Positions 4,958 through 61,845 of a stretch of DNA of 64,000 nt are shown piece by piece. Each line of letters opens with the position of its first letter. The stretch's first letter is position 1. Location of the stretch: NCBI GenBank assembly GCA_021801565.1, contig JAJYXV010000015.1, forward strand, positions 91,168 through 155,167, written 5' to 3'. This DNA comes from a bacterium. Lineage in GTDB: Bacteria > Patescibacteriota > Minisyncoccia > UBA6257 > GWB1-50-10. Under the pieces are notes generated by a model. That model saw nothing but the letters and a program-made list of their open reading frames with translations. It did not search any database and had not been told where the DNA came from. A program made the position numbers and the translations under genes.

Positions 4958-4995
4958 AATAACATCCCGCCCGCCAATTGGCGGGCGGGATGTTA
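4958..4995. repeat. Perfect 38-bp GC-cored palindrome (ATAACATCCCGCCCGCC AATT GGCGGGCGGGATGTTAT). Candidate bidirectional terminator or attenuator, and a member of the CCCGCC hairpin family.
   Basis: A 17-bp perfect stem with an AATT apex, followed by a T-run on the plus strand. Lies between the PBP start and the upstream acidic small ORF and ruvC. Confidence 0.6.
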
Positions 4996-5008
4996 TTTTG
5001 TTGTGTAT

Positions 5009-5155
5009 TTAATAATTTTCTTCCCCTTCTTCATCTCCGAGAAAATCTTTTGTCTCATCCTCTTTCTCTGTGTATTTTTCTTCATCTGTTGCGGCGTAGT
5101 CAACCTCTTCGTCATCTTCCTCTACAAAAATATCGGGGTCTGTCGTTTTTTTCAT
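5009..5155 (-). CDS. Candidate 48-aa highly acidic small protein (MKKTTDPDIFVEEDDEEVDYAATDEEKYTEKEDETKDFLGDEEGEENY).
   Basis: ATG..TAA ORF found by hand, below the 60-aa ORF-track cutoff. Same strand as, and between, ruvC and the PBP gene. Weak RBS. Confidence 0.25.
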   Translation of the reverse strand: MKKTTDPDIFVEEDDEEVDYAATDEEKYTEKEDETKDFLGDEEGEENY

Positions 5156-5335
5156 CTTCTTCAATAATTTTTAATTTATTCACGCTTAAACGACCTTTTA
5201 AAGCGTGTATAACGCATGCGGTAGGGATAATATAGCGACTATAAACAGAAGTCAACCCCGCTAGAAACAACTTATTTGTCTGGTTTTTTCACTTAAAAAC
5301 ATATTAATGATTTATGGGTGGGATTTCTGACGTGG

Positions 5336-5812
5336 TTAATATTTTTTTATGTAACACGCGGCGATAGCAATGGCAAGCGCATCTGTTGCATCATCGATAA
5401 TTTTTTTTGTGTTTATACTAAGAAGAGCTCCCACCATGTGTGCAACATGTTCTTTTGTTGCCCTTCCGTGTCCAGCAACAGATAATTTTATTTCCGGTGG
5501 AGAAAATTCTATATAAGGGACGCCGTGTTCTGTAATGGTTTTTAATATTACTCCCCGCGCCTGGCTTACCGAAAGCGCTGTTTTTTGATTTGTAGAAAAA
5601 TAAAGAGTTTCAATTCCGGCGATATCTGGTTTCCTTTTTTTTAAGATATTTTCTATTTCTTTTTCTAATACACACAAGCGCTCCCCGTCATTTTTATATT
5701 TTTTTTGTAATGGCAAAATACCACTTTCAATGTGTGTTAACACACCCCCGTGTTTCTTTATTATGCCGATTCCTATGCGAGTTGTTCCTGGATCGATTCC
5801 TAAAATAATCAT
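5336..5812 (-). CDS. ruvC: Holliday junction resolvase RuvC.
   Basis: 158 aa. MIILGIDPGTTRIGIGII N-terminus with the catalytic Asp. RNase H-like fold signature. Confidence 0.9.
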   Translation of the reverse strand: MIILGIDPGTTRIGIGIIKKHGGVLTHIESGILPLQKKYKNDGERLCVLEKEIENILKKRKPDIAGIETLYFSTNQKTALSVSQARGVILKTITEHGVPYIEFSPPEIKLSVAGHGRATKEHVAHMVGALLSINTKKIIDDATDALAIAIAACYIKKY

Positions 5813-5843
5813 AGTGTGAAGAATAATTTAAAAAACAAACACA

Positions 5844-7187
5844 CTAAGATATGTTTTTGAATATAGACGAATCGTCGTCTACGGAAATATTTTTTATTGG
5901 AAGGGTAAACCAAAACGTAGTACCTCGTCCGACGCGGGAATCAAACCCAACGTCTCCCCCGTGTCTTTTAATAATATTTTGTGTGATAAAAAGGCCAAGC
6001 CCGTTTCCGTTTGGTTCGATTTGTGCAGCGTTTGTTGCGCGGTAAAATTTTTTAAATATTTTTTCCCTCTCGTTTTCAGGAATACCAACCCCAGAGTCTT
6101 GAACAGATATTTTTATGACGTTTTCATTTTTTTCGAGCACAACAGAAACAAGTCCTTGTTCTGTATTATATTTCACCGCATTATCAATCAAATTAAAAAG
6201 CGCAAGACCTAGCCGATCCGGGTCGATGGTGATATATAACTCATTGATATTTTTATGGATAAACGTGATTTGTGAAGAGTGTTGACGAGCGAATGGGAGG
6301 ACTGCATCTATAACCCCCTTTATAAAAACAATAATATCTACACTCTTGAAGGAATACCCAAATTTTCCTTCTTCTATTTTTGCGACATCAAGAAGATCAT
6401 TTGTTATTTTTAACGTTCTTTCAGACACCCCAAATGCCTCAAGAGCGATTTTGTGTATTTCTGGCGATGAGTCTTCGGAGAATTTTAATATGTTTTCAAG
6501 TGCCCAGTTAAGTGCGGTAAGGGGGGTTCTTAGTTGGTGAGCGGCGGTATTGATAAATTCATTTTTACTTTGTAATATTGCTTGTTCTCGTGTTTCGTCT
6601 TTTATTAATTTAAGAAAACAAGAGATTTCTCCGTTTTTATCAATAATTCTATTTAGAACGGTGTAGAATTTTTTGTTTTGGTCATCGATAAAAATTTCCG
6701 TGATTTGTGGCCACGCATTGGTTTCAGAAAGTTGTGCGATCGAAGATGCGAGTGAGGGGAATATCACCTGTGTAAGAGACTTGAATTTTTCGATTTGACT
6801 GAGTTTTGGTTCAATGGTTTTTCCAATAATATCGTTTCTGGAAATGGAAAAAATCTCTTCTGCCGCAGGATTAAATTCCATCACCTTAAATTGAGGAGAA
6901 TAAATGACAAGACCGTCTTTTAAGTTTTCTATAATTGCCGATAATTTTCCCTGGTCGGATGAATCGTTGGTTGAACGTTTTGCGGAACCGGATCCCAATA
7001 CAACAACAAGCGTAACGGAGAAAAAAATCAGCGCCCACACAAGAAACAAGAGAAGTGGTTGGGTTTCAAGTAGCACATGAACAACTCCGACAATAATGGC
7101 AAAAAGAAAAAACAAAAACACAAAAACCGACATTTTTGTTCCGACGCCCCCCTTTGTTTTCCAGAAGGAAGAAAATATATTATTCAT
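5844..7187 (-). CDS. Sensor histidine kinase (TM, PAS-like region, HisKA, HATPase_c). No adjacent response regulator.
   Basis: H-box NTAAHQLRTPLTAL. N-box NLIDNAVKY. G-boxes DSGVGIP and GLGLFI. Two N-terminal TM helices. Confidence 0.8.
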   Translation of the reverse strand: MNNIFSSFWKTKGGVGTKMSVFVFLFFLFAIIVGVVHVLLETQPLLLFLVWALIFFSVTLVVVLGSGSAKRSTNDSSDQGKLSAIIENLKDGLVIYSPQFKVMEFNPAAEEIFSISRNDIIGKTIEPKLSQIEKFKSLTQVIFPSLASSIAQLSETNAWPQITEIFIDDQNKKFYTVLNRIIDKNGEISCFLKLIKDETREQAILQSKNEFINTAAHQLRTPLTALNWALENILKFSEDSSPEIHKIALEAFGVSERTLKITNDLLDVAKIEEGKFGYSFKSVDIIVFIKGVIDAVLPFARQHSSQITFIHKNINELYITIDPDRLGLALFNLIDNAVKYNTEQGLVSVVLEKNENVIKISVQDSGVGIPENEREKIFKKFYRATNAAQIEPNGNGLGLFITQNIIKRHGGDVGFDSRVGRGTTFWFTLPIKNISVDDDSSIFKNIS

Positions 7188-9576
7188 ATTTTTTCATATT
7201 TCCCCAATCTCTTCCCATCTTTACTTCTACTACAAGCGGGACCAAAAGAGACAGTGGGTGCTCCATAATGTCTCTTATTGGAGATATAATATTTTTTAGA
7301 ATATCATTATGAACTTCGAATATCAATTCATCGTGTATGGTGAGAATAAGACGCGCCGCGCTCCCGTATTTATTTGTGTCAATAAATTTTTGAGATGCAA
7401 TCATGGCGAGTTTCATTATATCAGCCCCTAAACTTTGTACGGGCATATTTATAGCCGCTCGTTCCATTTCAGAAATAATTTTTTTGTTCTGTATTCCTGT
7501 CGGAAATATCCTCATACGCCCCATCTCGTTTCTTATAACCCCCCCCATCCGTATTTCGGCCCGCATTTTTTCCTGCCATTCTCTCACTTTTGGAAAATCA
7601 AAGAAATATTCGTTAATGAAACGCCTCGCATCATCAAAAGAAAGACCACTTGTTGCAGAAAAAGCTCGTGGTCCCATACCGTACACAACCCCAAAGTTCA
7701 GTGTTTTTGCGATCCGCCGCAAATCCGGTCCGACCGCCGATTCTTCTATATTAAATATTTGTGCAGCGGTTGTATTGTGAATATCCTTTTTATTGAGAAA
7801 AGCAGATATCATTTTTTTGTCTTTTGAAATATGAGCGAGGAGTCGGAGTTCAAGTTGTGAATAATCGAACGAAACCAAGGAAAAACCATCCTCGGCGACA
7901 AATGCTCCACGCAATTCTTTTGACCATTTTGATTCTTGTGGAATGTTTTGGAGGTTTGGTTTTTCAGAAGAAAGTCGTCCTGTTGCTGTTCCTGTTTGCG
8001 AATATGTGGTGTGTATTCGATGGTGTTTGTCTGCTCGCACATATTCAAGAAGCGGAGAAACATATGTAGAGAGAATTTTCATGTTTTCTCTGTGTGCGAG
8101 AATATATTTAATTATTGGATGTTTGTCTTTGAGTCCAAAAAGCACCGACTCCGCTGTTGAGTTCATCCCTGTTTTTGTTTTGTGTTTTCCCCCCTCTTTT
8201 ATCTGGAGTTTTGAAAAAAGAATATCAGCAACTTGTCGCGGGGAATTAATATTAAACCGTTCCTTTGCAAACTCAAATATTTTTTCTTCTGTTTCTTCTA
8301 TCTCCTTTTTTATTTTTTTCTCGAGTTGGATAAGTGTATGTTCTTTACACAACACCCCACATAGTTCCATTTTTGCAAGAATAGGAATGAGTGGCATTTC
8401 TACTCCGTAAAAGATTTTTTCAAGTTTGTATTTTTTTATATTTTCACTTAATACACCATATAATTGATGGGTTATTTGGCCGGATGCGGTGGTTTTGAGA
8501 AACCTTTGTGATATATCGTCAATTGAAAACCTGCTCTTGTCTGGATCAAGAAGCCACGCTGCTACTTTTATATCAAAGACTTTATTGGGTGGAACCGAAT
8601 CATTTTTTTTCTGCTCTATCTCTTTTTTCCAATCATAGACAACTAGAATATTTTTATCAATTGTTATTGTCTTTTGTTTGTTGTCCTCCCCATTTTTTTC
8701 ATTATTTTTTTTATTTAATCCGAGTCTTTTTATGAGACTGTCAAATCCGAGATGATTGAAATATTTTTCAAGATCGTTTGTATTTGGTGCCACGTATCTT
8801 GTTTTGTCGAGCAATACATCCATTGGCACGTCTTTTTTTATGGTTGCAAGATCTTTAGAAAGAAGCGCCATTTTTTTATGTTCGGCTATTTTTTTGAATA
8901 ACGGATTTTTTTCATCAATTGATTTATATATATTTTCTACAGTTCCATATTTTGAAATAAGCTGAACCGCTGTTTTTGGACCAACATTAGGAATTCCGGG
9001 TATATTGTCTGACGGATCTCCGACAAGCCCCTTATAATCGGGAACATGCTCTACGGTGACGCCGAGGCGTTCAAACACTGCATTTTCATCATAAACCACA
9101 ACATCGTTTATCCCTCTTTTAAACGTTTCCACCTCCACTCGTCCATTTTTTACAAGCTGAAGCGTATCGAGATCTCCTGTGAGTATGGTGATAAACACAT
9201 CGCTTTCTTTGCTGAATTTTTCCGAGAACGTGCCGATAATATCATCGCCCTCGTATCCGGGAATTTCTGACACATATATGCCAAATTTTTTGAAAAGTTC
9301 CCGCGATTCTTTGAGTTGAGAAATAAGTTCATCTGGTGCTTTTGGGCGATGAGCCTTATATGCTTCATATTGTTCTTTTCGAAACGTTGGTTCCGGACGG
9401 TCAAACGCAGCGATTACATAATCTGGCGATTTTTCTTTTAGTACTTTGAGTAGTGTGCTGGCAACACCATAAAGCGCGCCTGTTGGTGTTCCATTTGGCG
9501 CAGTGAGGGGAGGAAGGGCATGAAACGATCGATGGATAAGCGAGTGGGCGTCAATAAGAAGAATTTTTTTTATCAT
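7180..9576 (-). CDS. polA: DNA polymerase I (5'-3' exonuclease plus polymerase domains, compact at 798 aa).
   Basis: N-terminal 5' nuclease (LLIDAHSLIHRSFHAL). Pol A motifs RRIAKTLNFGVVYGMG and HDELIFEV. Confidence 0.9.
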   Translation of the reverse strand: MIKKILLIDAHSLIHRSFHALPPLTAPNGTPTGALYGVASTLLKVLKEKSPDYVIAAFDRPEPTFRKEQYEAYKAHRPKAPDELISQLKESRELFKKFGIYVSEIPGYEGDDIIGTFSEKFSKESDVFITILTGDLDTLQLVKNGRVEVETFKRGINDVVVYDENAVFERLGVTVEHVPDYKGLVGDPSDNIPGIPNVGPKTAVQLISKYGTVENIYKSIDEKNPLFKKIAEHKKMALLSKDLATIKKDVPMDVLLDKTRYVAPNTNDLEKYFNHLGFDSLIKRLGLNKKNNEKNGEDNKQKTITIDKNILVVYDWKKEIEQKKNDSVPPNKVFDIKVAAWLLDPDKSRFSIDDISQRFLKTTASGQITHQLYGVLSENIKKYKLEKIFYGVEMPLIPILAKMELCGVLCKEHTLIQLEKKIKKEIEETEEKIFEFAKERFNINSPRQVADILFSKLQIKEGGKHKTKTGMNSTAESVLFGLKDKHPIIKYILAHRENMKILSTYVSPLLEYVRADKHHRIHTTYSQTGTATGRLSSEKPNLQNIPQESKWSKELRGAFVAEDGFSLVSFDYSQLELRLLAHISKDKKMISAFLNKKDIHNTTAAQIFNIEESAVGPDLRRIAKTLNFGVVYGMGPRAFSATSGLSFDDARRFINEYFFDFPKVREWQEKMRAEIRMGGVIRNEMGRMRIFPTGIQNKKIISEMERAAINMPVQSLGADIMKLAMIASQKFIDTNKYGSAARLILTIHDELIFEVHNDILKNIISPIRDIMEHPLSLLVPLVVEVKMGRDWGNMKKYE

Positions 9577-9581
9577 AGCTG

Positions 9582-10025
9582 TTATTTTTTAATTGTAATA
9601 TATCGCTCGTTCTTTTTTTGTCCATGTGTAAAGAAAACCCAGATTGCTTTTTTATTGATTGCTTTTTTTATAAGATCGGCCCACTCGATAACAACAATGT
9701 TTTCGTCATTTGATATCTCTTTTTCAAACCCCACACCAGATAGTTCACTTATTTTTTTTATGCGATATGCATCCATGTGTATGAATGATGAAAAATTATT
9801 TTTGTTAATTTTATATTTTTTTTGGATAAGAAACGTTGGGCTTGTAATTGTCGACCGCACCCCCAGTGTTTTTGCCAGACTTTTTACAAATGTTGTTTTT
9901 CCACTCCCTAATTCTCCTACGAGTCCTATCACCACCGTTTTTTTATGCATATCACGCAATATCTGAGAAATCAGACCTTGCGCTATTTTCTTTGTGTCGG
10001 TGGGAGAAAAAACGTGAAACTTCAT
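9582..10025 (-). CDS. tsaE: tRNA threonylcarbamoyladenosine biosynthesis protein TsaE.
   Basis: P-loop GELGSGKTTF and SPTF motif. About 147 aa. Confidence 0.8.
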   Translation of the reverse strand: MKFHVFSPTDTKKIAQGLISQILRDMHKKTVVIGLVGELGSGKTTFVKSLAKTLGVRSTITSPTFLIQKKYKINKNNFSSFIHMDAYRIKKISELSGVGFEKEISNDENIVVIEWADLIKKAINKKAIWVFFTHGQKKNERYITIKK

Positions 10026-10029
10026 TTAT

Positions 10030-11031
10030 TTAAACAAATCCGTGTTTTTCGAATGGGATATGAAGATGATCATATGCCGCCTTTGTGGCAACGCGTCCCA
10101 ATGAGGTTCTTTCCAAAAATCCAAGATTCATAAGAAATGGTTCATACACATCCTCGATTGTTCCCGTTTCTTCAGAAAGTGCTGCGGCCAGCGCCTTTAC
10201 TCCTACCGGGCCACCCCCAAATCTCTTTATGATGGTTTTTAAAAGTTCTCTATCAGTGTGTTCGAGTCCAAGTGAATCCACTTCAAGTAGTGATAATGTT
10301 TTTTCTACAACATATTCATCAATTGATCCGTTATGATATATTTCCGCATAATCACGCGCTCGCTTTAAAAGCCTATTTGCGGTTCGTGGAGTAAATCGCG
10401 ATGCGCGCGCAAGCATTGCAATTGCACCCGGGGTAATTTCTGTTTTTAAAATATATGCAGATTGTTTTATTATTTTTTCAATATCTTCGGTTCGATAATA
10501 ATCAAGTTTAATTGTTGCTCCAAAACGGGAACGAAGTGGGTTCGAAAGCACATTCACTTTTGTAGTTGCCGCGATTACTGTGAATGGTGGAAGATCGAGC
10601 GAAAACGTTCGTGCCGACGGTCCCTTTCCGACGATAAAGTGGAGTTTTCTACTTTCAAGCGCCGGATATAAAATTTCTTCAACGAGCTTGTTGATACGAT
10701 GTGCTTCGTCAATAAATAAAATTTCATGCGGTTCAATATTACTTAAAATTGCCGCTACATCTCCAGCTTTTTCAAGCGCAGGTCCCGTGGTTGATCTCAC
10801 CTGAACGCCCATTTCTTTTCCTATGAGGTATGCAAGAGTTGTTTTTCCCAAGCCCGCTTGTCCATAAAAAAGAAGATGATCACAACTTTCGCCCCTCTTT
10901 TTTGCCGCATCAATAATAAGACGCAAATTTGTTTTTGCCTTTTCTTGACCCACATATTCTGTCCATGTTCTCGGGCGCAACGCGAGATCAAATCCAGCGT
11001 CATCATTTTTTTCTTCCTTTTTTATTGCCAT
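10030..11031 (-). CDS. ruvB: Holliday junction branch-migration helicase RuvB.
   Basis: Walker A GQAGLGKTTLA. RuvB sensor and arginine-finger regions. Winged-helix C-terminus. The ATG at 11031 lies one codon inside the ORF-track GTG. Confidence 0.9.
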   Translation of the reverse strand: MAIKKEEKNDDAGFDLALRPRTWTEYVGQEKAKTNLRLIIDAAKKRGESCDHLLFYGQAGLGKTTLAYLIGKEMGVQVRSTTGPALEKAGDVAAILSNIEPHEILFIDEAHRINKLVEEILYPALESRKLHFIVGKGPSARTFSLDLPPFTVIAATTKVNVLSNPLRSRFGATIKLDYYRTEDIEKIIKQSAYILKTEITPGAIAMLARASRFTPRTANRLLKRARDYAEIYHNGSIDEYVVEKTLSLLEVDSLGLEHTDRELLKTIIKRFGGGPVGVKALAAALSEETGTIEDVYEPFLMNLGFLERTSLGRVATKAAYDHLHIPFEKHGFV

Positions 11032-11100
11032 CACAATTCATTTTACCGCACATGGGAGAAAATGTGTATTTTTTCTTCTAAAAGCGCGCTTTTTAATGAG

Positions 11101-11239
11101 GTTGACCCAGTAGTGAAAATTCGATATGTCGTTCCACGACACAGTTATATACTATTAAATTAAGACGGTTTGTGTTGGAAACGAATAGCAAAATTGAGCA
11201 CTTTCTCCCTATATAACCGAGTTTCTACTACCGGTTGAC
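11101..11239. repeat. Copy 1 of a perfect 139-bp inverted repeat. Its outer end is about 70 bp upstream of the ruvB start.
   Basis: The reverse complement is identical base-for-base to 15039-15177. Contains the palindrome TGTCG-TGGAA-CGACA (11127-11141). Both ends carry GTCAAC. Confidence 0.9.
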
Positions 11240-11293
11240 ATTTTTTTTGATATACGTATGATAGTCCCTAGTAAAGAGAAAGGAGATAGACAA

Positions 11294-11372: not shown

Positions 11373-11378
11373 ACTAAC

Positions 11379-11556: not shown

Positions 11557-11577
11557 AATAATTAAAGAGGAATACAA

Positions 11578-11876: not shown

Positions 11877-11916
11877 CTTTTCTCCCCAACCCCTAACCGT
11901 CTAACTATCTAACCGC

Positions 11917-50754: not shown

Positions 50755-50791
50755 TGGAGCGGAATACGGGAATCGAACCCGTGCCTTCACC
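50755..50791 (-). pseudogene. 3' half of a tRNA-Gly (anticodon-stem 3' strand through CCA), an exact duplicate of positions 39-76 of the adjacent intact tRNA-Gly.
   Basis: TGGAGCGGAATACGGGAATCGAACCCGTGCCTTCACC is identical to 50810-50846. Confidence 0.7.
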
Positions 50792-50809
50792 AAAGTTACA
50801 AAAATCTGA

Positions 50810-50883
50810 TGGAGCGGAATACGGGAATCGAACCCGTGCCTTCACCTTGGAAGGGTGACGTACAACCACTATACGAATCCCGC
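50810..50883 (-). tRNA. tRNA-Gly (anticodon TCC), CCA encoded.
   Basis: Minus strand GCGGGAT-TC-GTA..TAC-G-TCACC-CTTCCAA-GGTGA-AGGC-ACGGG-TTCGATT-CCCGT-ATTCCGC-T-CCA. Flanked by the 12-bp inverted repeats GTTACAAAAATC / GATTTTTGTAAC. Confidence 0.85.
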
Positions 50884-50906
50884 AGGTGAAGATTTTTGTA
50901 ACATTT

Positions 50907-50983
50907 TTGGAAGCCCGCCTGCCGCCTGCCTGTCGGCAGACAGGGCGGGCAGGGGTGACGTACAACCACTATACGAATCCCGC
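50907..50983 (-). pseudogene. 5' part of a second tRNA-Gly copy (positions 1-38) whose anticodon loop is interrupted between positions 32 and 33 by a 40-nt GC-rich hairpin.
   Basis: GCGGGATTCGTATAGTGGTTGTACGTCACC-C-[CTGCCCGCCCTGTCTGCCGACAGGCAGGCGGCAGGCGGGC]-TTCCAA. The first 32 nt are identical to the intact tRNA-Gly. Confidence 0.65.
50913..50952. repeat. GC-rich imperfect hairpin (copy A of the CCCGCCTGCC..CTGCCTG family).
   Basis: About 75 % GC in an AT-rich genome. Apex CCTGTC-GGCA-GACAGG. Outer stem GCCCGCC/GGCGGGC. Confidence 0.6.
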
Positions 50984-53740: not shown

Positions 53741-53814
53741 TGGTCGGAGAGCCGGGAATCGAACCCGGACTATATGCTCCCAAAGCATACGTACTACCAC
53801 TATACTACTCTCCG
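53741..53814 (-). tRNA. tRNA-Pro (anticodon TGG), CCA encoded.
   Basis: Minus strand CGGAGAG..TATGC-TTTGGGA-GCATA-TAGTC-CGGGTTCGATTCCCGG-CTCTCCG-A-CCA. Confidence 0.85.
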
Positions 53815-56131: not shown

Positions 56132-56149
56132 AATATAAGGAATTTTGAA

Positions 56150-57004
56150 ATGAAAAAGATGATTGCTATCTTTGTAGTTTTATTTCTCCAGTCTTTGAAC
56201 TTGTATGCTCAAAATTACAGTTCCAAAAAACTCTCAGATACCTCAGTTGTTATTCTGTCCGAATCTGAAAAAACTGATACCCTTTATGAAAAAAACGGGA
56301 TAGTAAAAATTGTACAAACGACTACAAAAATTCCAGTTGCTACAATAATGTTCCCAGAGAATCTTGATTACTACCACGCCTACTCTCTTTTTTATGACTA
56401 CAAAAGAATGGGAAAATCAGATTCTTCGAGAATATCCAATTGGGACACGGTAGTATATCATCCTGAGTACGGATATTTTATGAAAACGGAAAAATCTTCA
56501 TCTAAATACGCATATTTAGATGAAAAAGAAATGAGGGTTTTTGTTAAAGAATTTTCTCAAGAAAAAACTCTCTTGTCGCCAGGATTGTGTTTATTTGCTC
56601 CGACCTTCGTTTTATTTCTATTTTTTGGTTCTTTTTTTTCAAAGGCGTATAAAAAAAGAGAAGAACTTAGATTCGGAGACGGAAGAAATATAAAATTCTG
56701 GACTTATGTATGTTCAACCTTCTCCCTTTTATTAGTTGTTGTTGTTATTTCTGGTTTGATTCTTGGAGCAAAAACAGATGTTTTTTTTGGGATCGTTGTC
56801 TCCGCTGTTATGCTTTTTTTCTTATCGTTTGATTACGAGGATAGAACATTTACACTTCTTCTTGTTCTATTTTGCGCTTGTGGTGCGGGGATTTTTGCTG
56901 GTATTCCAAAATCCATAGGGCTATTCTTTATAACCATCTTTGTGATGGTTATGGCAAACATTGTGGGTAGAATAATACCCACCCCAAAATTTCTTTTGAA
57001 ATAA
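56150..57004 (+). CDS. Hypothetical membrane protein with an N-terminal signal peptide.
   Basis: Signal peptide and several C-terminal TM helices. Confidence 0.4.
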   Translation: MKKMIAIFVVLFLQSLNLYAQNYSSKKLSDTSVVILSESEKTDTLYEKNGIVKIVQTTTKIPVATIMFPENLDYYHAYSLFYDYKRMGKSDSSRISNWDTVVYHPEYGYFMKTEKSSSKYAYLDEKEMRVFVKEFSQEKTLLSPGLCLFAPTFVLFLFFGSFFSKAYKKREELRFGDGRNIKFWTYVCSTFSLLLVVVVISGLILGAKTDVFFGIVVSAVMLFFLSFDYEDRTFTLLLVLFCACGAGIFAGIPKSIGLFFITIFVMVMANIVGRIIPTPKFLLK

Positions 57005-57082
57005 TAAAAAATCCCACCTCATTATTTGGTGGGATTTTTCTTTGGAAATTTTTGATAGTTTTCCAGATAATATAAGTTTTGT

Positions 57083-57826
57083 TTGTGTTACACTATTTGT
57101 ATGCATTACGAAAAATATATCAAAAAATTGAAGGAGGTTTGTATTAAAAATGGTATAAAACTACAGAAAATTGGTGATGTTGGAAAAAAGAAAGAGTATC
57201 CAATGTTTAAAATTGTTTTGGGAAATTCAAGAAAAAAAACAGTGTGTTTTTCTGGCGGAATTCACGGAGAAGAACCCGCTGGTCCGTGGGCAATACTCGA
57301 ATTTATGAAACATTATAATTCGAAAAGATATAAGGATACAAAAATTATTTTATTTCCCGTGGCAAATCCATACGGATTTGACAGGGGAATTCGCCGCAAT
57401 TTTTTGAACAAGGATTTAAACGGACATTTTTGTAAGAGTGTTTTATCGGGAGAAAATAAGGTGCTCTACAATGCTGTAAAGAATGAAAATATTTTCTTTT
57501 TTCATGCGCTTCACGAGGACGAGGGATTTAAAAAGTTTTATCTTTATAATTTTGAAAAAAAACCCGAGAAAATTTACCGCGATATTATTCTGCTTGCGAA
57601 AAAATATTTTCCAATTGATACAAGAAAACGTATTTACAATGATCCCGCAAAAAACGGACTTATTATCAATCGTCCAGACGGATCATTTGAAGACAAGATG
57701 TTTCGAGATGGAGTTCCATATTCAATGTGCACCGAAACCCCGGAAGCACATCCACTTCGTAAAAGAATCGAATTAAATGTAAAAATAATGAATGTTGTAT
57801 TAGATTTTACAAAAAAATCAAAATAG
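57083..57826 (+). CDS. Succinylglutamate desuccinylase/aspartoacylase-like (M14-like) zinc hydrolase.
   Basis: GGIHGEEPAG and NPYGFDRGIRRNFLNKDLNGHF motifs. Confidence 0.55.
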   Translation: MCYTICMHYEKYIKKLKEVCIKNGIKLQKIGDVGKKKEYPMFKIVLGNSRKKTVCFSGGIHGEEPAGPWAILEFMKHYNSKRYKDTKIILFPVANPYGFDRGIRRNFLNKDLNGHFCKSVLSGENKVLYNAVKNENIFFFHALHEDEGFKKFYLYNFEKKPEKIYRDIILLAKKYFPIDTRKRIYNDPAKNGLIINRPDGSFEDKMFRDGVPYSMCTETPEAHPLRKRIELNVKIMNVVLDFTKKSK

Positions 57827-57874
57827 CATTCCTGTTTCAAATTAAAAATTCGCATAGTGTGCGGATTTTTTTTG

Positions 57875-57947
57875 TGCCCCCACTAGGACTTGAACCTAGA
57901 ACCTTCGCCTTAAGAGGGCGCAGCTCTACCAATTGAGCTATAGGGGC
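57875..57947 (-). tRNA. tRNA-Lys (anticodon CTT). No CCA encoded.
   Basis: Minus strand GCCCCTA-TA-GCTC-AATTGGTA-GAGC-T-GCGCC-CTCTTAA-GGCGA-AGGTT-CTAGG-TTCAAGT-CCTAG-TGGGGGC-A. One G-A mismatch in the anticodon stem. Confidence 0.8.
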
Positions 57948-58007
57948 GTATAACAATGATAAATTTTAAATTTTAAATTTCAAGTGGGAGAAAGAAATTT
58001 TGTCTAT

Positions 58008-58550
58008 TTATATAACCCACAAAATAAAGAGAATAAGTGCAAATATAAATTCTTGTTTTGAAAAATATTTAATTGGTCCATGAAGATTTACCCCGTTAGA
58101 ATCGGAGTGCCTCATGGTTTGCTGTTGGGGCAAACGTCGACCAACCTTAGAAAGCATAGTGTTTAATATGTTGTGTGGGTTTCTAACGGGGTTTATTTTT
58201 TTCCAAGGGAAAAACGGATAGAAATCTGCATCATCAAGCGCATCAAAAAGGAGGTGACACGCGTATCCGAGAGAGAATGAAAGCGCGAAATCAAAATTAA
58301 TAAAAAATAAAATAAAACAGATTGGAATAAATGCGAATATACTATGGAGAAAATTTCTTTGATATCCGAGCGTGTCTTCTTTGTCTGAAATAATTTTTAA
58401 CAGTCTCCATGGTTTTAACAAAAGTCCGTGTTTTGCGTACACCGCCAGATGATCAAGGTCTATGAGTGTCGCGCCGATAAGCGCGGGGACATAGTTTCCG
58501 GTTATTTTTCCAATGAGAAGTCCGCCAATAATATGTGTAGGAATAAACAT
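58008..58550 (-). CDS. DUF457 membrane-bound metal-dependent hydrolase-like protein (YdjM-like).
   Basis: N-terminus MFIPTHIIGGLLIG..LIDLDHL characteristic of DUF457. Confidence 0.55.
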   Translation of the reverse strand: MFIPTHIIGGLLIGKITGNYVPALIGATLIDLDHLAVYAKHGLLLKPWRLLKIISDKEDTLGYQRNFLHSIFAFIPICFILFFINFDFALSFSLGYACHLLFDALDDADFYPFFPWKKINPVRNPHNILNTMLSKVGRRLPQQQTMRHSDSNGVNLHGPIKYFSKQEFIFALILFILWVI

Positions 58551-59423
58551 CTATTCGCTTATTCCAGAAAGGAAAATGATACTGAGAATAGTAACTACAA
58601 TTCCAACATATTGGTGCCACTTCAATTTTTCTTTATTTATAAAAAGTCCAAGCAACACCGTGATTACAATATAACTTTCACTGATGGTGGTGGCGATAGT
58701 GATTGGAATAAGTGTTGTCGACATAGCAAACAGAACCCATGCAAGGTTGTCTAAAATAGAAACACTGATAATCGGAATTGGATTTTTACGAATATCTTCT
58801 ATGAGTTCATGAAGTATTTTGTGTCGCGCGAGATAAATAAAACACACGAAGGTAAAAAGGAGACTGGTGAACCATATAGTAAGGAGCGGCGATGTTTGTT
58901 GACTTCCTACGCCAATTAAAAAATTAAAGAGCCCCATACCAATTGCGCCAACACTGGCAAATATAACTCCTTTCTCGATATTAATTCGACGATGATAGTG
59001 GAGGTGTGTATGGTGTTTTGTGATGACAAGGATAATTCCGACGAACGTTGTGAATGAAAGGAGTAGTTGTGGAAGTGAAATTATCTCTCCCCAAATGAGT
59101 GTTGAAAGACCGATAGTGATGGGAAGTTCAATACCGAGTACGGGTTCGACAATTGCAAGTTTTCCTCGTCGAAGCGATTCAAATTCAAAGAGGGCGGTAA
59201 AAAGGACAATGAGTCCAGCGAGAAAAAGAACCGCAAGGTGTTTTGGTTCCCGCAAAAGTCCGCCGAGTTCACTCACAATAAATGGAAAGATAACAATAAT
59301 ACCCGATATACCGATAAAAAAGAGGGATTTCCAGATACCGACAATGCGGCTTGATTTCTGTATAAAAAAATCGCCAAATCCCCAACATAACAACGCTCCA
59401 AATGCGAATAAAATTCCTTCCAT
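58551..59423 (-). CDS. EamA/DMT-family transporter (10 TM).
   Basis: Two EamA-like repeats of five TM helices each. 290 aa. Confidence 0.6.
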   Translation of the reverse strand: MEGILFAFGALLCWGFGDFFIQKSSRIVGIWKSLFFIGISGIIVIFPFIVSELGGLLREPKHLAVLFLAGLIVLFTALFEFESLRRGKLAIVEPVLGIELPITIGLSTLIWGEIISLPQLLLSFTTFVGIILVITKHHTHLHYHRRINIEKGVIFASVGAIGMGLFNFLIGVGSQQTSPLLTIWFTSLLFTFVCFIYLARHKILHELIEDIRKNPIPIISVSILDNLAWVLFAMSTTLIPITIATTISESYIVITVLLGLFINKEKLKWHQYVGIVVTILSIIFLSGISE

Positions 59424-59428
59424 TTTTA

Positions 59429-59503
59429 TGGTGCGCCCGGAGGGATTCGAACCCCCAACGACTGCTTCGAAGGCAGTTATGATATCCGTTTCACTACGGG
59501 CGC
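59429..59503 (-). tRNA. tRNA-Arg (anticodon TCG), CCA encoded.
   Basis: Minus strand GCGCCCG-TA-GTGA..TCAT-A-ACTGC-CTTCGAA-GCAGT-CGTT-GGGGG-TTCGAAT-CCCTC-CGGGCGC-A-CCA. Confidence 0.85.
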
Positions 59504-59583
59504 AACATTATCATTCTAATGTGATTTGTATTAAATTATCAAATTTGTTAATTTCTTGATTTCTGCCGTAAAATGAATATGAG

Positions 59584-61152
59584 ATGAAAGAGTTTTTAAT
59601 TCCAGAAGAAATACAAGAAATAGCGGAAACGCTTACACGAAATGGATATGAAGCATATCTCGTTGGGGGATGTGTGCGTGATCTTTTGATTGGTAATTCA
59701 CTAACCGGCGGACCGAAGGATTGGGACATTACCACAAATGCACATCCAAAAGAAATACAAAAACTTTTTTCCACCTTCGCGGGTGCTACGGCGGACAAGC
59801 CCGCAACCGTGTATGAAAATGATTTTGGGACGGTGGGAATAAAAACAAGATCAGAGGATTCTACATTAAAAGTTGTTGAGGTGACCACGTTTCGTATTGA
59901 GGGGACATATTCAGATAAGCGCCACCCGGATGAAATAAAATTTGCAAAAACAATTGAAGAAGATTTATCACGAAGAGATTTTACGGTGAATGCGATGGCG
60001 CTTTCGTTAACTAATAACCCACAACAAACAATTCACAATAAGAGAAAAGAAAATGTTGTCGGTAGTAAGTTGTCGGTTGTTGGTCTACTTATTGATCCAT
60101 ATAGAGGACAGGAAGATTTGAAGGATAAAATTATCCGCACGGTGGGAGATGCAGAAAAGCGATTTAATGAAGATGCGCTTCGGTTGTTGCGTGCAGTGCG
60201 TCTTTCCGCACAGCTCGGATTCGAAATAGAACAAGAAACACAAAAAGTAATAAAGAAAAATGCGCCACTGTTAAAGCATATCGCCGAAGAACGAATTCGC
60301 GACGAGTTCCAAAAACTTATTATGACTCCGCGCGCCGCTGAAGGAATGTTTATGCTTCAAAAGTTCGATTTGCTTGAGTATATTATTCCCGAACTTTTGG
60401 AAGGAGTTGGGTGCAAACAAAACAAACACCACGTCTACACAGTATTTGAACATAACGTGCGGGCACTTGAATATGCAACAGAAAAAAATTATTCACTTGA
60501 GGTGCGTCTAGCGTCGCTTTTACATGATGTTGGAAAACCACGGACAAAAAGTGGGAGCGGAGAAAGTGCAACATTTTATAATCATGAAATGGTTGGTGCG
60601 CGAATGGCCAAAGATGTGCTTGATCGACTTCGATTTCCCCGCGATCTCGTACAGAAAGTGCGCCATCTCATCCGTTACCACATGTTCTACTATAATGTGG
60701 GAGAAGTAAGCGAGGCTGGGGTGCGGCGATTTATCGCACGCATCGGAGTTGAAAATATAGATGATATTTTGAGTGTGCGTGAGGCTGATCGTGTTGGTTC
60801 AAAAGTACCAAAGGCATTTCCCTACAAACTCCGTCATCTTCTTTTTATGATTGACAAGGTGCGTCACGATCCGGTGCATCCAAAAATGCTCGCGGTAAAA
60901 GGCGATGATATTATGAGATTTTTAAATATTCCAGCTGGTCCGCGCATAGGCGATATATTATTTGTACTTCTCGAGGAGGTGTTAGATGATCCATCAAAAA
61001 ACACAAAGGAGTATCTTAAGGAAAAAGTAAAAGAGCTTGGGGTGCTTTCTCTTGTTGAATTAAGAAAACTTGCAGATGAGGGGAGAAAAAAAAGAGACTC
61101 GATTGAAGAGGGGGTTGAAAATGACATAAAAAAACGCTATTTTGTGAAATAG
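59584..61152 (+). CDS. cca: CCA-adding tRNA nucleotidyltransferase with a C-terminal HD domain.
   Basis: Head motif GGCVRDLLIG..DWDI. RRDFTVNAM. HD domain HHVYTVFEHN..LLHDVGK. Confidence 0.85.
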   Translation: MKEFLIPEEIQEIAETLTRNGYEAYLVGGCVRDLLIGNSLTGGPKDWDITTNAHPKEIQKLFSTFAGATADKPATVYENDFGTVGIKTRSEDSTLKVVEVTTFRIEGTYSDKRHPDEIKFAKTIEEDLSRRDFTVNAMALSLTNNPQQTIHNKRKENVVGSKLSVVGLLIDPYRGQEDLKDKIIRTVGDAEKRFNEDALRLLRAVRLSAQLGFEIEQETQKVIKKNAPLLKHIAEERIRDEFQKLIMTPRAAEGMFMLQKFDLLEYIIPELLEGVGCKQNKHHVYTVFEHNVRALEYATEKNYSLEVRLASLLHDVGKPRTKSGSGESATFYNHEMVGARMAKDVLDRLRFPRDLVQKVRHLIRYHMFYYNVGEVSEAGVRRFIARIGVENIDDILSVREADRVGSKVPKAFPYKLRHLLFMIDKVRHDPVHPKMLAVKGDDIMRFLNIPAGPRIGDILFVLLEEVLDDPSKNTKEYLKEKVKELGVLSLVELRKLADEGRKKRDSIEEGVENDIKKRYFVK

Positions 61153-61155
61153 GCA

Positions 61156-61563
61156 ATGAATAAGTTTTTCGAGAAAAAGATTTGGAGAGCGCTCGCAGTC
61201 ACATGGGGAACACTCTATCTCGTATTGATTACGTTGGATTTTTTCTTTGCGAACAAATATGAGTATATACTTGGCTCGTTCGGAACGCTCTATATCGCGG
61301 TTCTGAGTATTTTTGTGGGGAGTAAGGAATTCGACCGCTGGCATGACAGTCACCCGGGAAAACGTCATGGAGAATTTTTTGTTATTGCGTTCAGTATTAT
61401 CCTCGTCGTGTTCTTTGTTTCATCTTTTTTTCTTGGACCGGAATATAAAGTGGGTACCGATATAATTGCGACGTATATTGCAATTCTTTCCGTTTATGTA
61501 TTGAGTCAGAAATCGAAAGAATTATACGGTGCGCATCGCGAAGATCAGAAACATTTGTTATAG
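61156..61563 (+). CDS. Hypothetical four-TM membrane protein.
   Basis: 135-aa hydrophobic ORF. Confidence 0.35.
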   Translation: MNKFFEKKIWRALAVTWGTLYLVLITLDFFFANKYEYILGSFGTLYIAVLSIFVGSKEFDRWHDSHPGKRHGEFFVIAFSIILVVFFVSSFFLGPEYKVGTDIIATYIAILSVYVLSQKSKELYGAHREDQKHLL

Positions 61564-61656
61564 TGTCTCAACGCGGGGTGGAGTCAAAAAGAAAAACATG
61601 TTTTCTATGTGATAAATATGACGGCAGTACACACGTTTTGGGGTTGAATATTTTGT

Positions 61657-61727
61657 CGGGGCGGAGTATGTCGGTAGTACGCACGCTTCGGGTGCGTGTA
61701 GACCGAGTTCAATTCTCGGCGCCCCGA
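61657..61727 (+). tRNA. tRNA-Pro (anticodon CGG). No CCA encoded. Flanked directly by 13-bp inverted repeats.
   Basis: CGGGGCG-GA-GTATGTCGGTAGTAC-G-CACGC-TTCGGGT-GCGTG-TAGA-CCGAG-TTCAATT-CTCGG-CGCCCCG-A. Flanks TTGAATATTTTGT (61644-61656) and ACAAAATATTCAA (61727-61739). Confidence 0.8.
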
Positions 61728-61796
61728 CAAAATATTCAACGGGAATGTTGGGGACATTCCCTGGAAATTTATAAAAAATTTATATAGACAGGGTTC

Positions 61797-61845
61797 CCCG
61801 CCTGCCCTGCCTGCCGTCAGGCGGGCGTCGGGCAGGAATTCCCTG
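61797..61845. repeat. GC-rich imperfect hairpin (copy B of the CCCGCCTGCC..CTGCCTG family), about 65 nt downstream of tRNA-Pro(CGG).
   Basis: CCCCGCCTGCCCTGCCTGCCGTCAGGCGGGCGTCGGGCAGG-AATTC-CCTGC.. shares the 5' arm motif with 50913-50952. Confidence 0.5.

What the first reader, a model, noticed from the sequence alone, without database searches (positions are those of the whole stretch)
4958..61845. Family of GC-rich 'CCCGCC' hairpins in AT-rich DNA (three copies)
Three short, roughly 75 % GC hairpins stand out against the AT-rich background. The first is 4958-4995, a perfect 38-bp palindrome with a CCCGCCCGCC-AATT-GGCGGGCGGG core. The second is 50913-50952, CCCGCCTGCCGCCTGCCTGTC-GG-CAGACAGGGCGGGCAGG, inserted in a tRNA-Gly anticodon loop. 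The third is 61797-61845, CCCCGCCTGCCCTGCCTGCCGTCAGGCGGGCGTCGGGCAGG-AATTC-CCTG.., downstream of tRNA-Pro. The last two share the 5' arm CCCGCCTGCC-CTGCCTG almost exactly and all three share the CCCGCC arm and an AT apex. They are intergenic, and two are tied to tRNA loci. They behave like REP/BIME-type or MITE-like palindromic units, or like a recognition hairpin for an RNA- or DNA-binding protein. Their presence inside a tRNA gene shows they are, or were, mobile.
Basis: seen in the sequence. Interest (0 to 1): 0.5.

Follow-up and report, generated by a model that had tools for sequence, protein, structure and literature searches.

The report
GC hairpin repeats inside broken tRNA genes
Two of the three hairpins are copies of a small mobile GC-rich palindrome sitting inside the wrecks of old tRNA genes that were invaded by replacement tRNA genes in a Patescibacteria genome, while the third is an ordinary conserved transcription terminator.

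Summary
All three hairpins exist, but they are not one family. Site 1 (4958-4997) is a vertically inherited terminator-type hairpin. It is kept at the same place in relatives, with four compensatory base-pair changes, and it is no more similar to the others than chance allows.

Sites 2 (50914-50952) and 3 (61797-61836) are homologous (0 of 2000 shuffles reach their alignment score). They belong to a ~40-nt GC-rich palindromic repeat. Copies that are 38/40 and 39/40 identical occur at other sites in other Patescibacteria contigs, and 11 metagenome contigs carry its 23-nt core.

In the window both copies lie inside disrupted "outer" tRNA genes. Site 2 is in the anticodon loop of an outer tRNA-Gly, which also carries a complete inner tRNA-Gly flanked by a 13-bp inverted repeat. 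Site 3 is in the T-loop of a shattered ancestral tRNA-Pro(CGG), whose anticodon loop carries a replacement tRNA-Pro. A close relative (L010) has plain, uninterrupted genes at both loci. GIY-YIG nuclease genes sit inside similarly broken tRNA genes 1 kb beyond the window and in a Jorgensenbacteria contig.

Best reading: these are DNA-level passenger repeats in tRNA-gene wreckage left by tRNA gene replacement. The insertion mechanism is inferred, not shown.

The parts
4958..4997 (-). Site 1. A perfect 40-bp palindrome (18-bp stem, AATT loop), 11 nt after the stop of a 48-aa acidic ORF (5155..5009, minus strand) and 36 nt before the start of the PBP1 gene (4921). It is a conserved terminator-type hairpin and NOT a member of the repeat family.
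   Evidence: terminator-like on both strands. Searches show orthologous hairpins in L074 and L075; 96% of cells paired and 4 of 17 pairs changed on both sides; no similarity to sites 2 or 3 beyond chance.
50953..50983 (-). Outer tRNA-Gly(UCC), 5' half (acceptor, D arm, 5' strand of the anticodon stem, C32). A 31-nt exact direct repeat of the inner gene.
   Evidence: (repeat D2). The flanks are the same as those of the plain gene in L010.
50914..50952 (-). Site 2. An H repeat copy of 39 nt (tRNA-sense strand: CTGCCCGCCCTGTCTGCCGACAGGCAGGCGGCAGGCGGG), inserted at position 32/33 of the anticodon loop of the outer tRNA-Gly.
   Evidence: It is absent from L010. L009 and L077 carry a different family member at the same position.
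50907..50913 (-). The rest of the outer anticodon loop, CTTCCAA.
50884..50906 (-). Left arm (S1) of the inverted repeat around the inner tRNA-Gly: AAATGTTACAAAAATCT + TCACCT.
   Evidence: (inverted repeat I1). There is a compensatory change relative to L009.
50810..50883 (-). Inner, complete tRNA-Gly(UCC) with encoded CCA. This is the functional copy.
   Evidence: ARAGORN. (Rfam tRNA, 64.3 bits).
50792..50809 (-). Right arm (S2) of the inverted repeat: TC + AGATTTTTGTAAC + TTT.
50755..50791 (-). Outer tRNA-Gly, 3' half (3' strand of the anticodon stem through CCA). A 37-nt exact direct repeat of the inner gene.
   Evidence: (repeat D1). Logan k=31 contigs stop exactly at this repeat.
61617..61643 (+). 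Remnant of the ancestral (outer) tRNA-Pro(CGG): D loop to anticodon loop, TATGACGGCAGTACACACGTTTTGGGG. The 5' acceptor strand is lost.
   Evidence: It matches the plain L010 gene at 22 of 27 positions.
61644..61740 (+). Inner replacement tRNA-Pro(CGG) (61657-61728) with 13-nt inverted-repeat arms that extend the acceptor stem to 21 bp. The arms are TTGAATATTTTGT and ACAAAATATTCAA.
   Evidence: inverted repeat I1, 100% complementary. L077 has a compensatory A:T to G:C change. The acceptor and T stems differ from the outer/L010 type.
61741..61784 (+). A small hairpin (GGGAATGT-TGGG-GACATTCCC, one G-G mismatch next to the loop) plus AT-rich filler, which replaces the 3' strand of the outer anticodon stem.
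61785..61796 (+). Outer tRNA-Pro(CGG) remnant: variable loop, 5' strand of the T stem, TTC of the T loop (TAGACAGGGTTC). 12 of 12 identical to L010.
61797..61836 (-). Site 3. An H repeat copy of 40 nt (minus strand: CCTGCCCGACGCCCGCCTGACGGCAGGCAGGGCAGGCGGG), inserted in the T loop of the outer tRNA-Pro(CGG).
   Evidence: It is 38/40 identical to the L009 tRNA-Gly copy and 39/40 identical to the L064 copy.
61837..61846 (+). Outer tRNA-Pro remnant: AATT of the T loop, 3' strand of the T stem, first acceptor base (AATTCCCTGC). 10 of 10 identical to L010.
61847..61877 (+). A second GC-rich insert (H2), TTGCCCGTCCGTAGCTTTAGCGAAGGCGGGT, in the acceptor 3' strand. It is similar to the leader of tRNA-Gly(GCC) in L064, by my reading of the two sequences.
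61878..61884 (+). Outer tRNA-Pro remnant: the end of the acceptor strand plus the discriminator (AGCCCGA). 7 of 7 identical to L010.
61909..61930 (+). An ordinary intrinsic terminator after the tRNA-Pro locus.

Best explanation
Sites 2 and 3 are copies of a ~40-nt GC-rich imperfect palindrome, called H here. Its consensus is CCTGCC-n-G-n-CGCC-n-GCCTGACGGCAGGCAGGGCAGGC-n-GG. H is a non-coding, DNA-level repeat dispersed in Patescibacteria and other uncultured genomes.

In this genome both copies sit in DNA that is no longer under selection as a tRNA: the outer shells of nested tRNA genes. At each locus a complete replacement tRNA, bracketed by a 13-bp inverted repeat, was inserted into the anticodon loop of the resident gene for the same amino acid. 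The resident gene became two flanking fragments, and these fragments then collected GC hairpins in or next to their former loops.

Shown:
- homology of the copies;
- presence/absence between close relatives;
- the nested architecture;
- the ancestral identity of the outer fragments.

Inferred:
- H spreads by copy-and-paste during recombination or break repair, or by an enzyme supplied in trans, not by a gene of its own.
- The breaks are linked to GIY-YIG nucleases found inside similarly broken tRNA genes.
- H has no sequence-specific role beyond forming a very stable hairpin. At site 2 it would be part of the 5' leader that is removed from the functional tRNA-Gly.

Site 1 is a separate, vertically inherited intrinsic-terminator-type hairpin of the small acidic ORF.
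For: Homology of the copies:
- Site 2 against site 3 scores 40; no shuffle of 2000 reaches that. Site 3 against L009 is 38/40 identical, and against L064 39/40.
- The 23-mer core is found in 11 metagenome contigs with 36-62% GC.
- Further copies turned up in the local census, and the family aligns as a whole.

Mobility at the DNA level:
- L010 (RecG 93% identical) has plain tRNA-Gly and tRNA-Pro(CGG) genes with the same flanks.
- L009 and L077 carry a different H variant at the same tRNA-Gly position.
- L063 and L067 share a locus but differ in arm length. L061 and L066 share a locus but have the hairpin in opposite orientation.
- The copies that are not next to tRNAs lie between ORFs.

Nested genes:
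- Exact 31-nt and 37-nt direct repeats and a 13-bp inverted repeat surround the inner tRNA-Gly. The minimum-energy fold is a tRNA inside a tRNA.
- The tRNA-Pro(CGG) remnants match L010 at 29 of 29 positions across the two inserts.
- There is a replacement series for tRNA-Pro(TGG): L010 has the plain old type, L009/L077 have the new type nested in the old, and the window has the plain new type in the same flanks.
- The flanking stems show compensatory changes.

Independent assemblies agree (L001, L002, L009, L077).

GIY-YIG genes lie inside broken tRNA genes at the tRNA-Ala locus of this genome and at the tRNA-Lys locus of L039.

Site 1.
Against: - No transposase or recombinase for H was identified.
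- No target-site duplication is visible.
- There are only 2 copies in ~82 kb of this genome.
- The window's tRNA-Gly and tRNA-Pro(CGG) loci contain no nuclease gene.
- One GIY-YIG homologue (P0263) sits in a context with no tRNA, so the link to tRNAs is not exclusive.
- The core of H is highly conserved in sequence, including the TGAC loop, across contigs of very different GC content. That could point to a protein-binding or RNA function rather than neutrality.
- The outer tRNA-Gly halves are 100% identical to the inner gene in both lineages, although the two lineages differ from each other at 2 positions. This needs either gene conversion or selection on the outer copy.
- Whether hairpins prefer tRNA loops cannot be settled. 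By my reading of the sequences about 6 of 10 insertions lie in loops, against roughly 36% of a tRNA's length being loop. No tool tested this.
Confidence: 0.6

Rival explanations
1. The H hairpins and the stems around the inner tRNAs are selected RNA modules of the pre-tRNA transcript. They would act as folding insulators that stop identical inner and outer halves from mispairing, as processing or stability elements, or as binding sites for a protein. On this view they are kept because they work, not because they are selfish.
For: The stems flanking the inner tRNAs show compensatory changes. Site 2 folds best on the transcribed, tRNA-sense strand, where it has G-U pairs. The H core and loop are strongly conserved across diverse contigs. 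The outer tRNA-Gly halves stay identical to the inner gene.
Against: H orientation is not fixed relative to neighbouring genes or to the tRNA strand: site 3 is antisense to tRNA-Pro, and L061 and L066 are flipped relative to each other. RNAalifold finds no pair with changes on both sides in H. H lies in remnants that cannot fold as tRNAs, since the outer tRNA-Pro has lost its 5' acceptor strand. Close relatives do without H.
Confidence: 0.15
2. The partial tRNA repeats are attL/attR scars of integrase-driven elements that targeted the anticodon loop or T loop and were later almost entirely deleted. The GC hairpins would be leftover element ends.
For: The direct repeats start in the anticodon loop or the T loop and run to the 3' end of the tRNA. 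These are the classic integrase sublocations (established knowledge, not tested here). Such repeats are seen in the window, in L016, L015 and L064, and as a third fragment in L009.
Against: Only 18 nt lie between the two 3' halves. The 5' half is duplicated as well, which 3'-end-restoring integration does not produce. The sequences on the two sides of the inner tRNA pair with each other and co-vary. No integrase is present in any of these loci.
Confidence: 0.12
3. H and the inner cassette are introns of a still-functional outer tRNA and are removed at the RNA level.
For: The inserts lie in the anticodon loop. Position 35/36 is used in L009 tRNA-Pro(TGG) and in the tRNA-Ala fragment. That is the position reported for group I introns in Patescibacteria (PMC13011429). 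The outer tRNA-Gly is otherwise intact.
Against: No group I intron or any other family matches in Rfam, even at E = 10. The inserts are far too short for a ribozyme. No bulge-helix-bulge motif appears in the fold. Release of the inner tRNA by ordinary processing would cut the outer one. The outer tRNA-Pro(CGG) lacks its 5' acceptor strand.
Confidence: 0.04
4. The three hairpins are unrelated GC-rich terminators whose similarity is compositional, or the nested tRNAs are assembly artefacts.
For: Site 1 really is a terminator-type hairpin unrelated to the others. The repeats are about k-mer length and break Logan contigs.
Against: Shuffle tests exclude chance for sites 2 and 3. Sites 2 and 3 have no T tract and are not called as terminators. 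The same architecture, with sequence differences, is found in independent assemblies from different studies.
Confidence: 0.03

Closest known systems
REP/BIME elements of Proteobacteria (mobilised by RAYT transposases)
   Same: Short (20-40 nt), GC-rich, imperfect palindromes. Extragenic. Dispersed. Variable between strains.
   Different: H has no GTAG-type conserved head. No RAYT was seen: none among the window's neighbour genes scanned against Pfam and none among the precomputed Pfam hits on the called genes of this genome's fetched loci. Density is very low (2 copies in ~82 kb). The arms are built from a variable number of sub-repeats. H lies inside tRNA-gene remnants.
Mitochondrial GC clusters of yeasts and repetitive hairpin-forming or double-hairpin elements of sponge and fungal mtDNA (PMC4478555, PMC2800124; found, abstracts only read)
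   Same: Small GC-rich palindromic hairpins that invade an AT-rich, compact genome. They have no coding capacity and are polymorphic between close relatives. The L009 T-loop inserts are literally double hairpins.
   Different: Those are organellar elements; this is a free-living or episymbiotic bacterial lineage. There is no sequence similarity. The mechanism is unknown in both cases.
Free-standing homing endonuclease cassettes (for example T4 Seg/Mob; SegB acts in the T4 tRNA gene region, PMC2988022 and PMC13096335, seen)
   Same: Small GIY-YIG genes lie next to or inside tRNA genes. tRNA alleles are replaced between close relatives with conserved flanks.
   Different: No nuclease gene lies at the two window loci. 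Cleavage specificity is untested. The nested tRNA-in-tRNA product is not a known outcome of homing.
tRNA introns (bacterial group I introns including position 35/36 in Patescibacteria, PMC13011429; archaeal bulge-helix-bulge introns at non-canonical positions, the latter from my own knowledge)
   Same: Insertions in the anticodon loop (35/36, 32/33, 38/39) and in the T loop.
   Different: There is no ribozyme (Rfam negative) and no bulge-helix-bulge motif. The insert contains a whole tRNA. The outer genes decay.
Intrinsic (rho-independent) terminators
   Same: Site 1 only: a GC stem followed by a T-rich tail, right after an ORF, with its structure conserved in relatives.
   Different: Sites 2 and 3 lack the T tract.

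Membership tests
REP/BIME | 20-40 nt GC-rich imperfect palindrome in extragenic DNA | tested here: met
REP/BIME | Conserved 5' tetranucleotide (GTAG-type) recognised by RAYT | tested here: not met
   The consensus starts with CCTGCC.
REP/BIME | Tens to hundreds of copies per genome and a RAYT gene in the genome | not testable with these tools
   Only ~82 kb of the genome could be read. It holds 2 copies. No Y1 transposase appears among the window's neighbour genes scanned against Pfam or in the precomputed Pfam hits on the called genes of the fetched loci.
MITE | Terminal inverted repeats plus a target-site duplication | tested here: not met
   The whole element is one inverted repeat. No consistent duplication appears at the insertion sites in the window, L009 or L064. 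One possible TCGTAAA repeat at L068 is unconfirmed.
MITE | A related autonomous element with the same ends | not tested
   No candidate was seen in the fetched loci. A genome-wide search was not possible.
Intrinsic terminator (site 1) | GC-rich stem-loop followed by a T-rich tail, immediately after a gene | tested here: met
   The stem spans 4958-4997, with tail TTGTTGTGTA on the plus strand and ATGTTATTAT on the minus strand. It begins 11 nt after the stop of the 48-aa ORF.
Intrinsic terminator (site 1) | Structure conserved in orthologous position | tested here: met
   96% of cells paired, 4 pairs changed on both sides, slid controls 43-59% paired.
Intrinsic terminator (sites 2 and 3) | T tract after the stem | tested here: not met
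   Searches report no terminator-like site at either element.
Group I intron in a tRNA | Match to the group I ribozyme model, size above ~200 nt | tested here: not met
   Rfam at E up to 10 gives only tRNA plus chance hits. The inserts are 39-115 nt.
Integrase att-site duplication in a tRNA gene | Direct repeat of the tRNA 3' part, starting in the anticodon loop or T loop | tested here: met
Integrase att-site duplication in a tRNA gene | An integrated element with an integrase gene between the repeats | tested here: not met
   The two repeats are separated by 18 nt at tRNA-Gly. No integrase is found in the loci.
Homing-endonuclease cassette | A nuclease gene inside or beside the interrupted target gene | tested here: inconclusive
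   Present at tRNA-Ala of this genome (L084 13034-13300) and at tRNA-Lys of L039, where it is frameshifted (PF01541, E = 6e-16). Absent at the window's tRNA-Gly and tRNA-Pro(CGG) loci. Homologue P0263 is not next to a tRNA.
Homing-endonuclease cassette | Cleavage of the uninterrupted allele and immunity of the invaded allele | not testable with these tools
   This needs biochemistry.

The most novel reading that the evidence does not exclude
Patescibacteria harbour a self-propagating tRNA replacement cassette. It consists of a complete tRNA gene bracketed by a short inverted repeat, sometimes accompanied by a GIY-YIG nuclease gene. It invades the anticodon loop of the resident gene for the same tRNA and takes over its function. 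The old gene is left as two fragments, which are then disabled or stabilised by GC-rich palindromes. Repeated rounds give onion-like layers and rapid, horizontally driven turnover of tRNA alleles: old type, then nested, then new type, as seen for tRNA-Pro(TGG). The new allele appearing with an encoded CCA in otherwise unchanged flanks would also fit an RNA-mediated step.
Probability: 0.25. Interest if true: 0.8.

Novelty: new variant of a known kind. Interest (0 to 1): 0.6.

Why it matters
If the reading holds, it has four consequences.

- Compact, AT-rich Patescibacteria genomes carry small GC-rich palindromic repeats comparable to mitochondrial GC clusters.
- tRNA genes in this lineage turn over by an unusual route. 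A replacement gene is inserted into the anticodon loop of the resident gene and leaves a nested tRNA-in-tRNA. I found no report of this in the literature searches.
- There are practical effects. Such loci break short-read assemblies. They create tRNA pseudogene fragments that annotation tools ignore. They may also confuse tRNA-based inference of missing or intron-containing tRNAs in candidate phyla.
- The association with GIY-YIG genes gives a testable handle on how essential RNA genes can be invaded without killing the host.

Tried and rejected
- Rfam at gathering threshold on the window, and at E up to 10 on both loci and four related loci, gave only tRNAs, the tmRNA and chance hits.
- Two scans of viral contigs for the H core found nothing.
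- RNAalifold on 11 H copies found no pair changed on both sides. A correlated variation I noticed (alignment columns 23 and 57 of A4) does not fit a continuous helix, so I do not claim it as covariation.
- I looked for a target-site duplication and for common terminal sequences among the three inverted-repeat pairs that flank inner tRNAs. Neither was convincing: the arms are AT-rich and unrelated in the outside-to-inside direction.
- By my own count the preference of hairpins for tRNA loops is not significant (about 6 of 10 insertions in loops, with roughly 36% of a tRNA's length being loop).
- Promoter scans near the loci gave counts at shuffle level.
- Short Logan contigs carrying RecG homologues (L082, L083) end inside or before the tRNA and added nothing.
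- The GIY-YIG homologue P0263, looked up in 10 places, always lies in one context (after a YqeY-domain gene) with no tRNA. The nuclease family is therefore not tRNA-specific.
- The ~130-220-nt elements that follow tRNAs in L015, L016 and L064 and end in a copy of the tRNA 3' end were not resolved.

Full report
**Source.** The window is a 37.5% GC bacterial chromosome segment. It carries a tmRNA gene, dnaN, ruvC, recG, RNase Y and RNase J. It is identical to contig DAIBZE010000013.1 of MAG GCA_027423585.1 wherever I compared them. The relatives found with RecG are labelled Patescibacteria, Parcubacteria or Jorgensenbacteria.

**Observation.** All three hairpins are present.
- Site 1 is a perfect 40-bp palindrome at 4958-4997. 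It folds at -36 kcal/mol, z about -8.5 to -10.4.
- Site 2 is 39 nt, 50914-50952.
- Site 3 has a 40-nt core at 61797-61836, followed by a second GC insert.
- CCCGCCTGCC with up to one mismatch occurs 7 times against 0.76 expected, always within these sites. The bare hexamer CCCGCC is not enriched.
- Sites 2 and 3 align with a score of 40, which none of 2000 dinucleotide shuffles reaches. Site 1 against either one scores 15-16, which about 10% of shuffles reach.

**Site 1 is something else.** It lies on the minus strand, 11 nt after the stop of a 48-aa acidic ORF (5155..5009). That ORF has a conserved promoter-like TTGACT-17-TATTAT upstream. The hairpin is 36 nt before the PBP1 gene start. In relatives whose RuvC is 76-78% identical, a hairpin sits at the orthologous position with compensatory changes:
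- window: CCCGCCCGCC-AATT-GGCGGGCGGG
- L074: CCCACCCGCC-GACC-AGCGGGTGGG
- L075: CCCACCCGTT-TATA-AACGGGTGGG

On the three-sequence alignment 96% of cells pair and 4 of 17 pairs change on both sides. With the partner columns slid by 1-3 positions only 43-59% pair. The simple scanner calls it terminator-like on both strands. It is therefore a vertically inherited, structure-selected hairpin, most simply the terminator of the small ORF. Two relatives' contigs stop at or near it, a typical assembly effect of palindromes.

**Sites 2 and 3 belong to a real repeat family (H).**
- The hairpin in the same tRNA-Gly position of L009 and L077 differs from site 2. It is 38/40 identical to the reverse complement of site 3.
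- A copy in L064, a different Patescibacteria-like contig full of tRNA genes, is 39/40 identical to site 3.
- The shared 23-mer occurs in 11 metagenome contigs with 36-62% GC.
- In those contigs the arms are built from variable numbers of sub-repeats, (GCCTGCCTGAC)n ... (AGGGCAGGC)n. The same locus can carry different arm lengths (L063 and L067) or the element in opposite orientation (L061 and L066).
- The copies that are not next to tRNAs lie between ORFs.
- The consensus is CCTGCC-n-G-n-CGCC-n-GCCTGACGGCAGGCAGGGCAGGC-n-GG.
- RNAalifold finds no compensatory pairs in H. Orientation is not tied to the transcribed strand, since site 3 is antisense to tRNA-Pro.
- H has no T tract and is not called as a terminator.
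- No Rfam family matches, and no viral contig carries it.
- I found 2 copies in about 82 kb of this genome.

**What the hairpins are sitting in: tRNA-Gly.** Read on the minus strand, 50983..50755 consists of the following, in order:
1. a 5' half of tRNA-Gly(UCC), 31 nt;
2. H;
3. the anticodon loop CTTCCAA;
4. an inverted-repeat arm;
5. a complete tRNA-Gly(UCC) (64.3 bits in Rfam);
6. the other inverted-repeat arm;
7. a 3' half of tRNA-Gly, 37 nt.

The two halves are exact repeats of the inner gene. The minimum-energy fold of the 241-nt stretch is a tRNA nested in the anticodon region of a tRNA, at -100.4 kcal/mol and z = -4.8. L010 (RecG 93% identical) has one plain tRNA-Gly between the same flanks. 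The window allele therefore equals the ancestral gene plus two insertions: H at position 32/33, and a 115-nt cassette (arm, tRNA, arm) at position 38/39. L009 and L077 share the architecture. They carry a compensatory change in the 13-bp stem (GTTAC/GTAAC becomes CATTAC/GTAATG). They also carry a further 3' fragment whose T loop is interrupted by a double hairpin. Logan k=31 contigs end exactly at the first fully repeated k-mer. The architecture recurs in independent assemblies, so I do not consider it an artefact.

**What the hairpins are sitting in: tRNA-Pro(CGG).** L010 has a plain gene directly upstream of the GDPD gene. In the window that gene is shattered into pieces:
1. the D loop to anticodon loop survives at 61617-61643 (22 of 27 identical to L010), but the 5' acceptor strand is gone;
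2. next comes a complete tRNA-Pro(CGG) whose acceptor stem is extended to 21 bp by perfect inverted repeats (61643-61663 / 61720-61740);
3. then a small hairpin and AT-rich filler;
4. then TAGACAGGGTTC | H | AATTCCCTGC | 31-nt GC insert | AGCCCGA. These 29 tRNA-derived bases are identical to L010.

Site 3 is thus an insertion in the T loop of the dead ancestral gene. The inner gene has different acceptor and T stems (CGGGGCG and CCGAG, against CGGGCTG and CAGGG), so it is a distinct allele and not a simple duplicate. L077 has the same inner gene with a compensatory A:T to G:C change in the extended stem. L077 has lost the outer 3' part and with it this H copy.

**A replacement series.** For tRNA-Pro(TGG), four states are seen:
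- L010 has the old allele.
- L009 and L077 have the new allele nested at about position 35/36 of the old one, whose T loop carries a double hairpin.
- L011 (RecG 66% identical) has the new allele with a decayed outer 5' half.
- The window has the new allele alone, with encoded CCA, between flanks that align with those of L010.

The new allele is identical in genomes whose RecG is only 66% identical. This suggests horizontal spread.

**Further broken or layered tRNA loci.** These include tRNA-Lys in L009 and L077, which has a D-loop hairpin TCCGCCCAAGGCGGA. They also include three loci in L064, where H or the TCCGCC hairpin interrupts 3'-end copies of tRNA-Ser and tRNA-Arg.

**Link to nucleases.** One kilobase beyond the window, in the same contig, the tRNA-Ala(CGC) locus is layered. 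It holds an old 5' fragment, then a 17-nt fragment identical to the functional gene that stops inside the anticodon. An intact 88-aa GIY-YIG gene follows, then a second 5' fragment with a GC hairpin and an AT hairpin, then the functional tRNA. In L039 (Jorgensenbacteria) a frameshifted GIY-YIG gene (PF01541, E = 6e-16) lies between an inner tRNA-Lys and an outer 3' piece. The pair is bracketed by a ~38-nt direct repeat that contains a 16-nt perfect palindrome. A homologue elsewhere appears, by my reading of the sequence, to be inserted near the 3' end of a YqeY-domain gene with no tRNA nearby. The nuclease family is therefore mobile but not tRNA-specific.

**Interpretation.**

Shown:
- Sites 2 and 3 are homologous.
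- The family is dispersed and polymorphic.
- Both window copies lie in disrupted ancestral tRNA genes whose function has passed to an inserted inner copy.
- Site 1 is unrelated.

Inferred:
- H is a DNA-level passenger repeat. It is copied into dispensable DNA during recombination or break repair, or by an enzyme supplied in trans.
- The breaks and the replacement cassettes are connected with GIY-YIG nucleases.
- At site 2, H is transcribed as part of the leader of the functional tRNA-Gly and discarded.

The main uncertainty is whether the strong sequence conservation of H, and the perfect identity of outer and inner tRNA-Gly halves, reflect function rather than recency or gene conversion.

**Literature.** Searches found group I introns in Patescibacteria tRNA genes, including at position 35/36 (PMC13011429). 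They found nothing on short hairpin insertions or nested tRNA genes. The nearest analogues are mitochondrial GC clusters and hairpin elements (PMC4478555, PMC2800124) and free-standing homing endonucleases in phage tRNA regions.

Noticed in passing
window 53741-53814 (minus strand), compared with L010 12249-12320 and L009 3949-4166: tRNA-Pro(TGG) in the window is a different allele (CGGAGAG..., with encoded CCA) from the one in L010 (CGGGCTG..., no CCA), although the flanking DNA aligns base for base. L009 and L077 have the window allele nested inside the L010 allele. This looks like a precise replacement of the gene body. The added CCA could hint at an RNA intermediate.
   Followed up: partly
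L084 12890-13525 (same contig as the window; equivalent to window coordinates 64862-65497, just past the window end): A layered tRNA-Ala(CGC) locus: two generations of 5' fragments, an intact 88-aa GIY-YIG gene inserted after a fragment that stops inside the anticodon, a GC hairpin (TCCCGC...GCGGGA) and a 17-bp AT hairpin, then the functional tRNA.
   Followed up: partly
L009 485-499, 4115-4145, 6135-6165; L077 9234, 12761, 14781; L064 1641, 3788: A second hairpin family, TCCGCC-nnn-GGCGGA, often followed by a second small hairpin to make a double hairpin. It is found in the D loop or T loop of broken tRNA-Lys, tRNA-Pro and tRNA-Gly copies. It is absent from the window.
   Followed up: partly
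window 61847-61877 and L064 5614-5650: By my reading of the two sequences, the 31-nt GC insert after site 3 (TTGCCCGTCCGTAGCTTTAGCGAAGGCGGGT, followed by AGCCCGA) resembles the leader plus first bases of tRNA-Gly(GCC) in L064 (TTGCCCGCCGAAGCTCTTTAGCGAAGGCGGGTATGG). This suggests patchwork copying between tRNA loci.
   Followed up: no
L015 128-345 and 8500-8662; L016 1811-2000; L064 3830-3990 and 5760-5906: Non-coding elements of about 130-220 nt follow tRNA genes. Each begins with an antisense-like copy of that tRNA's T arm and ends with a direct copy of its last 16-23 nt. The two L064 copies share a stem-loop with a compensatory change. In L015 the elements are bordered by 27-nt tandem repeats (AATTCGACTTCGCTCATGGTCTACGAC). 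No Rfam match.
   Followed up: partly
L039 355-850: A Jorgensenbacteria tRNA-Lys locus. A ~38-nt direct repeat containing the perfect palindrome TCCGTCAGCTGACGGA brackets an inner tRNA-Lys plus a frameshifted GIY-YIG gene.
   Followed up: partly
window 5009-5155 (minus strand): A conserved 48-49-aa, very acidic small ORF with its own promoter-like site (5255-5227) and terminator (site 1), lying between ruvC and the PBP1 gene. It has no Pfam family on record in the relatives.
   Followed up: no
L077 5600-5700 (minus strand): Upstream of the nested tRNA-Pro(CGG) there is an older partial layer: GATTTGGGG + TAGTGTTATTTTGT + CGGGGTGGAGT, followed by a hairpin. This is an onion-like stacking of successive insertions.
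   Followed up: no
L085 1-6750 (up to ~9 kb upstream of window position 1): Genes of a type IV secretion or conjugation-like system (PrgI, TraC, TraG-like ATPase, T4SS pilin) lie directly beside rnpA-yidC-dnaA-dnaN, that is, next to the presumed replication origin region.
   Followed up: no
L087 1480-1900: By my reading of the sequence, a GIY-YIG homologue (P0263) appears to be inserted near the 3' end of a YqeY-domain gene, bracketed by AT-rich inverted repeats (CGATTATAAAATTTTA / TAAAATTTTATAATCG). What looks like the remaining C-terminal coding sequence is still readable downstream.
   Followed up: no
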